Part shown: positions 11,832 through 12,734 of the stretch, in pieces
Layout: each line of letters opens with the position of its first letter
Position numbering within the stretch: the first letter of the stretch is position 1
Assembly: GCF_003334385.1 (NCBI RefSeq)
Contig: NZ_QOWN01000005.1
DNA length: 64,000 nucleotides
Direction: 5' to 3' (one strand)
Source of the DNA: Escherichia coli
Lineage (GTDB): Bacteria; Pseudomonadota; Gammaproteobacteria; Enterobacterales; Enterobacteriaceae
Position numbers and translations under genes: made by a program
The notes under the pieces: generated by a model
Seen by the model: the letters and a program-made list of their open reading frames with translations, nothing else
What the model was told of the DNA's origin: nothing
Databases searched by the model: none

Positions 11832-12734
11832 TTAAATAAGGTTAATTACCTTATCAATCTCAGCAAGAGGTAAATTTGCCATCTCTGCAACGTCTTCCCG
11901 AGACATTCCTTTACTCAGAAGACGCTGGGCGAATTCCTGACTTACTTCCTGTCTTCCCTGCTGAATCCCCTTCTCAATCCCTTTCTCTTCAAACCACTGC
12001 GCCAGCGTCATCATAGACTCCCCTCCCGTTTCCCTGTCTCTCAACACACCGTAAAACAAATCCGCTTGTTCAGTATGACCGCGTTGCAGCATATAGTTTT
12101 GCATGGCAACTAACTGACTTCCGCTAGTGTACCCTTCGTCGATCAGCGTGACCAGTTGCTCAAGCAATAACATTAAGTCGCGCTGGCGAATATGTTTTTG
12201 CAGTAGTTCGAGAATCGCAATCCGCCGATGTTGCATGATTTCGTCATCCGGTGTGATGGTGATATCCACCAGCGGGAAAGGACTGTTATAGACGCGTCGC
12301 GCCAGCTCCGGCGAGTAAAACATATCAAACCAGCACATTGATAGCGGATAAGGTGTGGCCTCGCCCTGATAAAACAGTATCGGCACCACCAGCGGCAGCT
12401 TATCGTGGTCAGCCTCCAGATGCCGGTGCATGGCGGCTATAGAATAACGCATCATGCGAAAGGCCATTTTCTTATCCGGCTTGCTTTGGTGTTCAATCAC
12501 AACATGCAGATAACCGGGATTGCCCTGCATTTGCACGGAATAGAGCACGTCCGTGCTGTGTCCTTTCAGGCTCTCTTCAATGAAACTCCCCGACTCTAAA
12601 TGAAGCGTGTTGAGGTCACAAAGTTCGCGTAATTCCACTGGCAAATGTATCTCCAGAAAGTCGCGAGCCGTCTCCGCATGCATTAAAAATTGTTTAAATA
12701 CCGCGTCATGCGGTGTGGTACTCGGTGCATCCAT
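11832..12734 (-). CDS. rpnC: Rpn-family recombination-promoting nuclease (transposase-like PD-(D/E)XK protein)
   Basis: 300-aa translation recognised as YadD/RpnC (YhgA-like); opposite strand to the flanking pan genes. Confidence 0.85.
   Translation of the reverse strand: MDAPSTTPHDAVFKQFLMHAETARDFLEIHLPVELRELCDLNTLHLESGSFIEESLKGHSTDVLYSVQMQGNPGYLHVVIEHQSKPDKKMAFRMMRYSIAAMHRHLEADHDKLPLVVPILFYQGEATPYPLSMCWFDMFYSPELARRVYNSPFPLVDITITPDDEIMQHRRIAILELLQKHIRQRDLMLLLEQLVTLIDEGYTSGSQLVAMQNYMLQRGHTEQADLFYGVLRDRETGGESMMTLAQWFEEKGIEKGIQQGRQEVSQEFAQRLLSKGMSREDVAEMANLPLAEIDKVINLI

What the first reader, a model, noticed from the sequence alone, without database searches (positions are those of the whole stretch)
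11832..12734. Transposase-like Rpn nuclease gene on the opposite strand inside the panB-panC-panD biosynthetic cluster
Seen in sequence: panB and panC (+) are separated from panD (+) by a 300-codon ORF on the - strand whose product I recognise as a YhgA/Rpn-family PD-(D/E)XK protein. It is flanked by a bidirectional terminator (11764-11799) and a 273-bp intergenic region. Established knowledge: Rpn proteins are transposase-derived recombination-promoting nucleases. Inference: an ancient insertion of a mobile-element-derived gene split a pathway cluster.
Basis: partly seen in the sequence, partly recalled or inferred. Interest (0 to 1): 0.35.

Follow-up and report, generated by a model that had tools for sequence, protein, structure and literature searches.

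The report
Known rpnC nuclease gene splitting panBCD
The ORF is rpnC (yadD) of E. coli K-12, a nuclease gene already studied and published, with a small antitoxin protein translated from inside the same gene; its insertion between panC and panD is real but has been described in the literature since 1996, so the finding is correct and ordinary.

Summary
A 300-codon minus-strand ORF (11832-12734) lies between panB-panC and panD. The window is 100% identical to E. coli K-12, where this ORF is annotated rpnC. It matches Pfam PF04754 (E=3e-87) and keeps every residue shown to be needed in RpnA. The insertion inference also holds: most sampled Enterobacteriaceae have only 34-290 bp between panC and panD, while all sampled Escherichia species and 5420 of 5426 complete E. 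coli genomes carry rpnC. None of this is new. Kingston et al. 2017 analysed this same insertion, and they cite a 1996 paper for the insertion-sequence idea. The "transposase-derived" part is not supported. I found no terminal inverted repeats, no target duplication and no compositional anomaly, and Zhong et al. 2023 argue that Rpn proteins are not transposases. rpnC is a toxin-antitoxin gene-within-gene: an internal start (ATG 12014, strong Shine-Dalgarno) yields a 60-aa RpnC_S that blocks full-length RpnC_L, with specificity set by four-amino-acid repeats. My one small addition is the junction map: the ~1.16-kb block sits exactly where the ancestral panC stop codon overlaps a conserved promoter-like box upstream of panD.

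The parts
10101..10895 (+). panB (context)
   Evidence: ORF; RefSeq annotation
10907..11758 (+). panC. Its TAA stop (11756-11758) lies at the left edge of the inserted block.
   Evidence: In genomes without rpn, panC ends one codon later in a TAG that is part of the TAGACA box.
11763..11793 (.). G+C-rich hairpin between the convergent panC and rpnC. It is a likely terminator for panBC and a weak candidate for rpnC. It belongs to the inserted block: the CTGGCGC/GCGCCAG stem recurs in the Pseudocitrobacter and Salmonella rpn alleles and is absent from empty sites.
   Evidence: (I10)
11832..12734 (-). rpnC (yadD), full-length product RpnC_L, 300 aa: PD-(D/E)XK DNA endonuclease (the toxin)
   Evidence: literature
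12114..12716 (-). Coding region of the PF04754 (YhgA-like) domain, aa 7-207. Carries D10, D62, E81, Q83, R93 and P162-D-D-E165.
   Evidence: Pfam match. Alignment to RpnA puts these residues opposite RpnA D11/D63/E82/Q84/R94/D165, which were mutated in Kingston 2017.
12018..12027 (-). Shine-Dalgarno GGGAGGGGAG for the internal translation start
   Evidence: Retained with the ATGATG (one G-to-A change in one locus) in all 8 other Escherichia loci checked; GGAGG in S. diarizonae.
11832..12014 (-). rpnC_S: in-frame internal ORF from ATG-ATG (M241/M242) to the shared stop, 59-60 aa (the antitoxin)
   Evidence: M242 aligns with RpnA M244, the start of RpnA_S confirmed by mutation. RpnC_S protein was detected in MG1655 by Zhong 2023.
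11937..11984 (-). Four-amino-acid repeat tract KGIE-KGIQ-QGRQ-EVSQ (aa 251-266), hypervariable between strains
   Evidence: Tail length runs from 56 to 74 aa among Escherichia loci because of repeat number. Adding one KGIE repeat breaks RpnC_S/RpnC_L pairing (Zhong 2023).
12735..12912 (.). Non-coding region upstream of rpnC that belongs to the inserted block
   Evidence: Alignable among all rpn-bearing loci and absent from empty sites
12769..12797 (-). Candidate rpnC_L promoter CTGACG-N17-GATACT (a prediction only)
   Evidence: Read from the sequence. Both hexamers lie in blocks (gcagtatc, gtcag) conserved in both rpn allele groups. It scores 8 of 12 and was not reported by the consensus scan.
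12913..12941 (+). Promoter-like box TAGACA-N17-AATACT, 66 nt before panD. It marks the right edge of the insertion, and its TAG is the panC stop codon in genomes without rpn.
   Evidence: panD is a separate sigma-70 transcription unit in E. coli (Cho et al. 2014).
12959..12977 (+). Hairpin AAGCAGGC-atc-GCCTGCTT in the ancestral panC-panD spacer
   Evidence: The stem changes on both sides between genera; its energy is not exceptional (z -1.2).
13008..13388 (+). panD (context)

Best explanation
This is rpnC (yadD) of E. coli K-12, a chromosomally fixed one-gene toxin-antitoxin module. The full-length product RpnC_L (300 aa) has an N-terminal PD-(D/E)XK endonuclease domain that damages DNA when over-produced. 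A second, more abundant product, RpnC_S (the last 59-60 residues), is made from an internal promoter and an internal start codon in the same frame. It binds the identical C-terminal domain of RpnC_L and blocks it. [quoted passage not shown] The gene arrived as a block of about 1.16 kb (hairpin + rpnC + about 180 bp of upstream DNA). The block sits exactly at the end of panC, just left of a promoter-like box upstream of panD. The most likely physiological role is anti-phage defence, but that has been shown only for a plasmid paralogue, not for RpnC. What each step rests on: gene identity, domain, catalytic residues, internal start signal, repeat variation and insertion junctions were all shown here. 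Synthesis of RpnC_S and RpnC_L, toxicity, SOS induction and repeat-matched neutralisation are published. The defence role of RpnC itself is inferred.
For: Identity: the window is 100% identical to K-12 records that annotate rpnC. Family: PF04754 E=3e-87; TIGR01784 298 bits. Active site: RpnC D10/D62/E81/Q83/R93/D164 align with the RpnA residues whose mutation abolishes or alters activity. Internal start: GGGAGGGGAG-TCT-ATGATG at 12027-12009, with M242 aligned to the confirmed RpnA_S start M244; the signal is present in all 8 other Escherichia loci checked and in S. diarizonae. Repeat variation: tails of 56-74 aa. A duplicated stand-alone tail gene (rpnC_Ss) is present in 1556/5426 E. coli genomes. 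Published experiments on K-12 RpnC: over-expression raises RecA-independent recombination 2.9-fold, lowers viability 59% and induces SOS. RpnC_S and RpnC_L were both detected by chromosomal tagging, and only an RpnC_S with the same repeat number blocks RpnC_L. Insertion: empty panC-panD sites in most sampled genera, with junctions at the panC stop and the TAGACA box.
Against: No phage-defence phenotype has been reported for chromosomal RpnC. Defence was shown only for plasmid RpnP2 under particular conditions. PADLOC-DB v2 gives no meaningful match. The neighbours are pantothenate and fimbrial genes, not a defence island. RpnC is the weakest of the four active paralogues in the Kingston assays. 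I could not locate the internal promoter from sequence; the scan found nothing on the minus strand. Its existence rests on the dRNA-seq data cited by Zhong et al..
Confidence: 0.9

Rival explanations
1. Relic insertion sequence: rpnC encodes a (former) transposase that moved itself into the pan cluster.
For: The historical names Transposase_31 and 'putative transposase'. The gene is a derived insertion, and paralogues exist elsewhere in the genome.
Against: No terminal inverted repeats flank the block; the best flanking pair is 10 nt at 90% and indistinguishable from the other chance pairs. There is no target duplication and no duplicated panC 3' end. The median is one place per genome across 5425 genomes, so there is no sign of recent movement. 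Kingston found no new insertions in laboratory or wild strains. No autonomous transposase with a PD-(D/E)XK fold is known, and Zhong et al. reject the transposase idea.
Confidence: 0.03
2. Homing-endonuclease-like, site-specific self-insertion: the Rpn cassette targets the end of panC and has entered that site more than once (the model of Kingston et al.).
For: Two divergent allele groups (Escherichia versus Salmonella/Pseudocitrobacter, 57-65% aa identity) occupy the same site, in the same orientation, 273-274 bp from panD. Kingston's trees place Enterobacteriaceae FGI 57 rpnC with Salmonella although its pan genes group with Escherichia.
Against: Both allele groups share the whole block, including a homologous hairpin and upstream non-coding DNA, and the same two junctions. 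That is what alleles descended from one insertion would look like. At nucleotide level rpn is only slightly more diverged than its flanks (K-12 versus Salmonella: rpn 75%, panC 80%, panD 83%). Purified RpnA shows little or no sequence specificity. Deletion remnants in S. arizonae and Kluyvera show that loss occurs.
Confidence: 0.1
3. Recombination-promoting housekeeping nuclease with no defence role, or a slowly decaying passenger gene kept only because the antitoxin makes it harmless.
For: Over-expression promotes RecA-independent recombination. RpnC activity is weak. Degenerate alleles exist: a 26-aa internal deletion in strain E69 and a deletion remnant in S. arizonae.
Against: The N-terminal domain is retained at 80% coverage or more in 5420/5426 E. 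coli genomes. All catalytic residues are kept in all 9 full-length Escherichia alleles, including K-12, and in the Pseudocitrobacter and Salmonella alleles. The tail tract varies by whole four-residue units, and the tail gene has been duplicated. This argues for ongoing selection, not decay.
Confidence: 0.15

Closest known systems
RpnA (YhgA) of E. coli K-12, the biochemically characterised exemplar
   Same: 49% identical overall. Same PF04754 domain, same catalytic residues, the PDDEIMQHRR motif, an internal start at the aligned methionine, and a variable C-terminal tail.
   Different: The tail sequence differs, and RpnA lacks 8 residues where the RpnC repeats lie. RpnC gives weaker phenotypes (2.9-fold versus 49-fold recombination). 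RpnC has not been purified or crystallised; a PDB sequence search found nothing.
RpnP2_LS (plasmid-borne Rpn of E. coli ECOR13)
   Same: Same RpnL toxin / RpnS intragenic antitoxin architecture.
   Different: RpnP2 has a demonstrated anti-phage effect against T-even phages and RpnC does not. RpnC is chromosomal and nearly universal in E. coli.
rpnE-ypaA (rpnE_Ss) and the rpnC-rpnC_Ss arrangement of other E. coli strains
   Same: A second, stand-alone copy of the tail gene sits downstream of rpn. It is seen in strains uk_P46212 and CE0007a (65-71 aa, GFQK repeats) and in 1556/5426 genomes.
   Different: The K-12 window has only the single gene. Its tail is mosaic: KGIE/KGIQ repeats resemble the stand-alone copy and RQEVSQEFAQRLL resembles the full-length copy. 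That fits the loss-by-fusion route Zhong et al. mention in general terms, but I did not prove it.
Insertion sequences and the PD-(D/E)XK transposase subunit TnsA of Tn7
   Same: A single-gene block inserted into a conserved cluster, with a PD-(D/E)XK fold.
   Different: No inverted repeats, no target duplication, no recent mobility, and no partner transposase genes.

Membership tests
Rpn / YhgA-like family (Pfam PF04754, TIGR01784, COG5464) | Significant full-length match to the family profile | tested here: met
   PF04754 E=3e-87, model positions 1-201 of 203. TIGR01784 scores 298 bits against a cutoff of 52. The RpnA and ISNCY equivalog models score below their cutoffs, as expected for a paralogue.
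Rpn / YhgA-like family (Pfam PF04754, TIGR01784, COG5464) | PD-(D/E)XK catalytic residues (RpnA D63, E82, Q84, plus D11, R94 and D165 of PDDE) | tested here: met
   RpnC D62, E81, Q83, D10, R93 and D164 lie in invariant columns of the RpnA alignment.
Rpn / YhgA-like family (Pfam PF04754, TIGR01784, COG5464) | DNA endonuclease activity | not testable with these tools
   Published for purified RpnA only. For RpnC only in vivo toxicity, SOS induction and recombination phenotypes are reported.
RpnL/RpnS intragenic toxin-antitoxin (Zhong et al. 2023) | In-frame internal start with a ribosome-binding site ahead of the C-terminal tail | tested here: met
   GGGAGGGGAG-N3-ATGATG at M241/M242, homologous to RpnA M244. 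Present in all 8 other Escherichia loci checked and in S. diarizonae.
RpnL/RpnS intragenic toxin-antitoxin (Zhong et al. 2023) | [quoted passage not shown] | tested here: met
   Tails of 56, 58, 60, 62, 66, 70 and 74 aa differ by KGIE/RQEV-type units.
RpnL/RpnS intragenic toxin-antitoxin (Zhong et al. 2023) | The small protein is made and neutralises the long one | not testable with these tools
   Published for this very gene in MG1655: SPA-tag immunoblots and dinD-lacZ assays with repeat-matched RpnC_S.
RpnL/RpnS intragenic toxin-antitoxin (Zhong et al. 2023) | Internal promoter for the short transcript | tested here: inconclusive
   The consensus scan reported no promoter-like site on the minus strand. 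Existence rests on the dRNA-seq data cited.
Insertion sequence / autonomous transposon | Terminal inverted repeats at the ends of the inserted block | tested here: not met
   Only short chance-level pairs; nothing pairs the 11756-11830 end with the 12735-12912 end.
Insertion sequence / autonomous transposon | Target-site duplication | tested here: not met
   The sequence left of the TAGACA box shows no significant similarity to any panC 3' end. Nearly all comparisons give z below 2; the only ones above are isolated and cross-species. No direct repeat flanks the block.
Insertion sequence / autonomous transposon | Multiple copies or evidence of recent movement | tested here: not met
   Median one place per genome, in the same chromosomal context. 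Divergence tracks the flanking genes within E. coli.
Catalogued anti-phage defence systems (PADLOC-DB v2.0) | Match to a defence-system protein model | tested here: not met
   Only E=0.0018 and 0.0032 hits over 22-47 tail residues to unrelated models. The 2023 library may simply pre-date Rpn.

The most novel reading that the evidence does not exclude
The rpnC block has identical junctions in two divergent allele groups: exactly at the panC stop codon on the left, and at the -35-like hexamer of a conserved box upstream of panD on the right. If this reflects site-specific, homing-like insertion by the Rpn nuclease, Rpn genes would be a new kind of self-mobilising PD-(D/E)XK element with a defined target. 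The evidence does not exclude it. I think one ancient insertion followed by loss and allelic exchange through the flanking pan genes is more likely.
Probability: 0.08. Interest if true: 0.55.

Novelty: already known. Interest (0 to 1): 0.1.

Why it matters
It matters little as a discovery. The gene, its family, its odd place inside the pan cluster, the comparison with genomes lacking it, the resulting separate panD transcription unit and its toxin-antitoxin mechanism are all published. The locus is still a clean textbook case of a gene-within-a-gene antitoxin, and of a foreign gene fixed inside a biosynthetic cluster without harming it. The junction map made here suggests why it was tolerated: the block lies immediately upstream of a promoter-like box that stays with panD, and it supplies panC with a new stop codon and a hairpin. 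The open question is whether the nearly universal chromosomal rpnC actually defends E. coli against phages.

Tried and rejected
1. Only short chance-level pairs turned up. Rejected.

2. A duplicated or relic panC 3' end left of the TAGACA box, which would indicate a target duplication or a recombinational insertion. I ran local alignments of that region from 9 loci against 8 panC ends, with shuffled controls. Nothing was consistently significant. Rejected: homology to empty sites stops within about 2 nt of the TAG.

3. Compositional signature of foreign DNA. GC is 0.47-0.52 across rpnC, like its flanks. None found.

4. A solved structure for RpnC by sequence search. No PDB match at E<=0.01.

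5. Rfam families in 11600-13200. Only a meaningless snoRNA hit at E=0.3.

6. PADLOC defence models. No real match.

7. Locating the internal rpnC_S promoter from consensus. Nothing convincing (and reading by eye), so I make no claim.

8. An orphan antitoxin in the S. arizonae remnant. It keeps only the last ~40 codons, with no start codon. It is a decayed remnant.

The retry succeeded.

Full report
**1. What is there**

The window around the finding is 100% identical to E. coli K-12 chromosomes. It lies in the reverse orientation of the MG1655 map.

- The 300-codon ORF at 11832-12734 on the minus strand is the RefSeq gene rpnC, formerly yadD: 'recombination-promoting nuclease RpnC', WP_000339954.1.
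- Its neighbours are panB (10101-10895), panC (10907-11758) and panD (13008-13388), all on the plus strand. Beyond them lie yadC on one side and yadE on the other.
- The rpnC-panD spacer is exactly 273 bp.
- The hairpin between the convergent panC and rpnC is at 11763-11793. It has a perfect 10-bp stem that extends to 12 pairs, with dG -20.5 kcal/mol on the plus strand and -16 on the minus strand; both are about 4 sd below shuffled controls. Only the panC-side transcript would carry a U-rich tail. It is therefore a good terminator candidate for panBC and a poor one for rpnC.

**2. Family**

- The protein matches Pfam PF04754 (Transposase_31, YhgA-like) over residues 7-207 with E=3e-87.
- It matches NCBIfam TIGR01784 (Rpn family) with 298 bits against a cutoff of 52.
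- Aligned with RpnA from MG1655 (locus L084) it is 49% identical.
- Every residue that Kingston et al. mutated in RpnA (D11, D63, E82, Q84, R94, D165) is conserved in RpnC as D10, D62, E81, Q83, R93 and D164.
- The same residues are kept in all 9 full-length Escherichia alleles, including K-12, and in the Pseudocitrobacter and Salmonella alleles.

Membership of the Rpn family is secure.

**3. What the gene is known to do**

Kingston et al. 2017 (PMC5350276) named the five K-12 paralogues RpnA to RpnE.

- Over-expressed RpnC raises RecA-independent recombination 2.9-fold, lowers viability of recA cells by 59%, and induces an SOS reporter.
- Purified RpnA is a Mg-dependent, Ca-stimulated endonuclease with little sequence specificity.

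Zhong et al. 2023 (PMC10400941) showed that all five genes contain an internal promoter and an internal translation start.

- The resulting small C-terminal proteins (RpnS) block the toxic full-length proteins (RpnL).
- For RpnC in particular, both RpnC_S and RpnC_L are detectable from the MG1655 chromosome.
[quoted passage not shown] Inserting one 'KGIE' breaks the pairing.

In the window the internal start is plain: GGGAGGGGAG, three bases, then ATG ATG at 12014-12009, giving a 59-60-residue product. M242 aligns with RpnA M244, whose mutation abolishes RpnA_S. The Shine-Dalgarno and ATGATG are present in all 8 other Escherichia loci I examined, with a single G-to-A change in one, and in S. 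enterica diarizonae.

The repeat tract in K-12 is KGIE-KGIQ-QGRQ-EVSQ at 11937-11984. It differs by whole four-residue units among Escherichia species and strains, giving tails of 56 to 74 residues.

About 29% of complete E. coli genomes (1556 of 5426) carry a second, stand-alone tail gene (rpnC_Ss, 65-71 aa) between rpnC and panC. K-12 has the single-gene form. Its tail looks mosaic between the two copies. Zhong et al. mention loss of rpnSs by fusion as a general route, but I did not prove it for K-12.

**4. Was it an insertion?**

I fetched 80 Enterobacteriaceae panD loci and located panB, panC, rpn, panD and yadE in each.

- **Escherichia.** All sampled Escherichia (E. coli lineages, E. albertii, E. 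whittamii and unnamed species) have rpnC at 85-96% amino-acid identity. It lies in the same orientation, and its start is exactly 273 bp from panD.
- **Divergent allele.** Pseudocitrobacter, S. enterica subsp. diarizonae and the MAG UBA5654 carry a divergent allele (57-65% identity). It occupies the same place and orientation, 273-274 bp from panD in the first two.
- **Remnant.** S. enterica subsp. arizonae has a 415-bp remnant that keeps only the last ~40 codons and the upstream region.
- **Empty sites.** Citrobacter, Klebsiella, Raoultella, Enterobacter, Kluyvera, Pluralibacter and others have no rpn, with 34-290 bp between panC and panD.
- **Within E. coli.** The nuclease domain is present at 80% coverage or more in 5420 of 5426 complete genomes. 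It diverges in step with panB, panC and the spacers.

Kingston et al. did this same comparison on 32 panCD segments and noted the unoccupied site in Salmonella LT2. They recount that the 1996 description of the pan genes already proposed 'ORF3' as a new insertion-sequence family. Cho et al. 2014 (PMC3923258) showed the transcriptional consequence: panD belongs to a panBCD unit in K. pneumoniae but forms its own sigma-70 unit in E. coli because of yadD.

**5. Junctions: my small addition**

In the clean empty sites (Citrobacter, Klebsiella, Raoultella terrigena), panC ends ...CAG TAG, followed by ACAGGGGTTAAAAATCGGGCAATACT. That TAG plus ACA forms the first hexamer of a promoter-like box, TAGACA-N17-AATACT, lying 66-70 nt before panD. 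The same box, with an A-to-G change in a few loci, is found in 48 of the 83 loci examined. In the window it is the site that the promoter scan picked out at 12913-12941.

In every rpn-bearing locus the box is intact on the right of the block, and panC ends in a different stop codon (TAA or TGA) supplied at the left edge. The inserted block in K-12 therefore runs from about 11756 to 12912, roughly 1.16 kb. It consists of the hairpin, rpnC and about 180 bp of upstream DNA.

Homology to the empty sites stops within two bases of the TAG. A test for a duplicated panC end beyond it was negative. This placement may explain why the insertion was tolerated, but there are caveats:

- Whether the box is the working panD promoter is not shown here.
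- Cho et al. assign Klebsiella panD to the panBCD unit even though the box is present there.
- Enterobacter PanC also ends ...VELA-stop like E. coli, so the 'one codon lost' reading is not secure.

**6. Mobile-element origin**

- I found no inverted repeats or direct repeats bounding the block.
- There is no GC anomaly.
- There is no copy-number evidence of movement.
- Zhong et al. report the same for rpn genes in general, and point out that no autonomous transposase with this fold is known.

The 'transposase-derived' step is therefore not supported. The family name is a historical label.

**7. One insertion or two?**

Kingston et al. favour two separate introductions at the same site, and they list alternatives. 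My data add three points:

- The two allele groups share both junctions, a homologous hairpin (CTGGCGC...GCGCCAG) and alignable upstream non-coding DNA.
- At nucleotide level, rpn is only slightly more diverged than its flanks. K-12 versus Salmonella: rpn 75%, panC 80%, panD 83% over aligned columns.
- Deletion relics exist in S. arizonae and probably in Kluyvera, which shares about 20 nt (tgcgtgacGatGcgcaa) with the UBA5654 upstream region.

These points fit one insertion followed by faster protein evolution, losses and allelic exchange at least as well as two insertions. They do not exclude site-specific re-insertion. I leave this open.

**8. Verdict**

It also omits the established mechanism, a toxin with an intragenic antitoxin. 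Everything of substance is already published, so interest is low.

Noticed in passing
window 12913-12941; loci L015, L018, L020-L025, L069 and others, about 66-70 nt before panD: A promoter-like box TAGACA-N17-AATACT is conserved upstream of panD in Escherichia, Salmonella, Citrobacter, Klebsiella, Kluyvera and Pseudocitrobacter. In genomes without rpn, its TAG is the panC stop codon.
   Followed up: partly
window 12959-12977: A hairpin (AAGCAGGC/GCCTGCTT) in the ancestral panC-panD spacer keeps its pairing through changes on both sides in other genera, for example GCAGAT..ATCTGC in C. amalonaticus and AGCTGGT..ATCAGCT in Pseudocitrobacter. Its energy is unexceptional and it has no Rfam match. 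Function unknown.
   Followed up: partly
L008 about 2600-2730 (E. albertii) and L004 about 2548-2700 (Escherichia sp. E1V33): Directly after panC these species carry an extra segment (…AAGTTGCAGGAAGGCGGCAAGCGAGTGAATCCCCAGG…) that K-12 lacks. From memory it resembles an ERIC/IRU repeat element; I did not test this.
   Followed up: no
L017 3586-4000 (S. enterica subsp. arizonae): A 415-bp deletion remnant of the Salmonella-type rpn allele. It keeps only the last ~40 codons of the tail and the upstream non-coding region, with no start codon.
   Followed up: yes
L007 (record titled E. coli strain E69, a separate GTDB species): Its rpnC allele has an in-frame deletion of 26 residues (SMCWFDMFYSPELARRVYNSPFPL region) inside the nuclease domain, while the internal start and tail are intact. 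It may be an antitoxin-only or attenuated allele.
   Followed up: partly
L028, L031, L040 (Kluyvera), panC-panD spacer: These loci have no rpn. The 257-290-bp spacer holds REP-like G+C-rich repeats and about 50 nt resembling the right end of the rpn block, which suggests past loss of rpn.
   Followed up: partly
E. coli genome hits H1, H21, H30: Some strains have IS2 or IS1A inserted in this locus. 77 matches lie on records classed as plasmids, for example a 127-kb record with panD, an Rpn gene and yadE. These may be chromosome fragments or F-prime-like plasmids.
   Followed up: no
window 10101-14621 versus L002 and L003: panB and panC differ by 4-8% in nucleotide sequence between K-12 and B2-type or bovine strains. 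From general knowledge this is high for E. coli core genes, and it may reflect linkage to the adjacent variable yad fimbrial operon.
   Followed up: no
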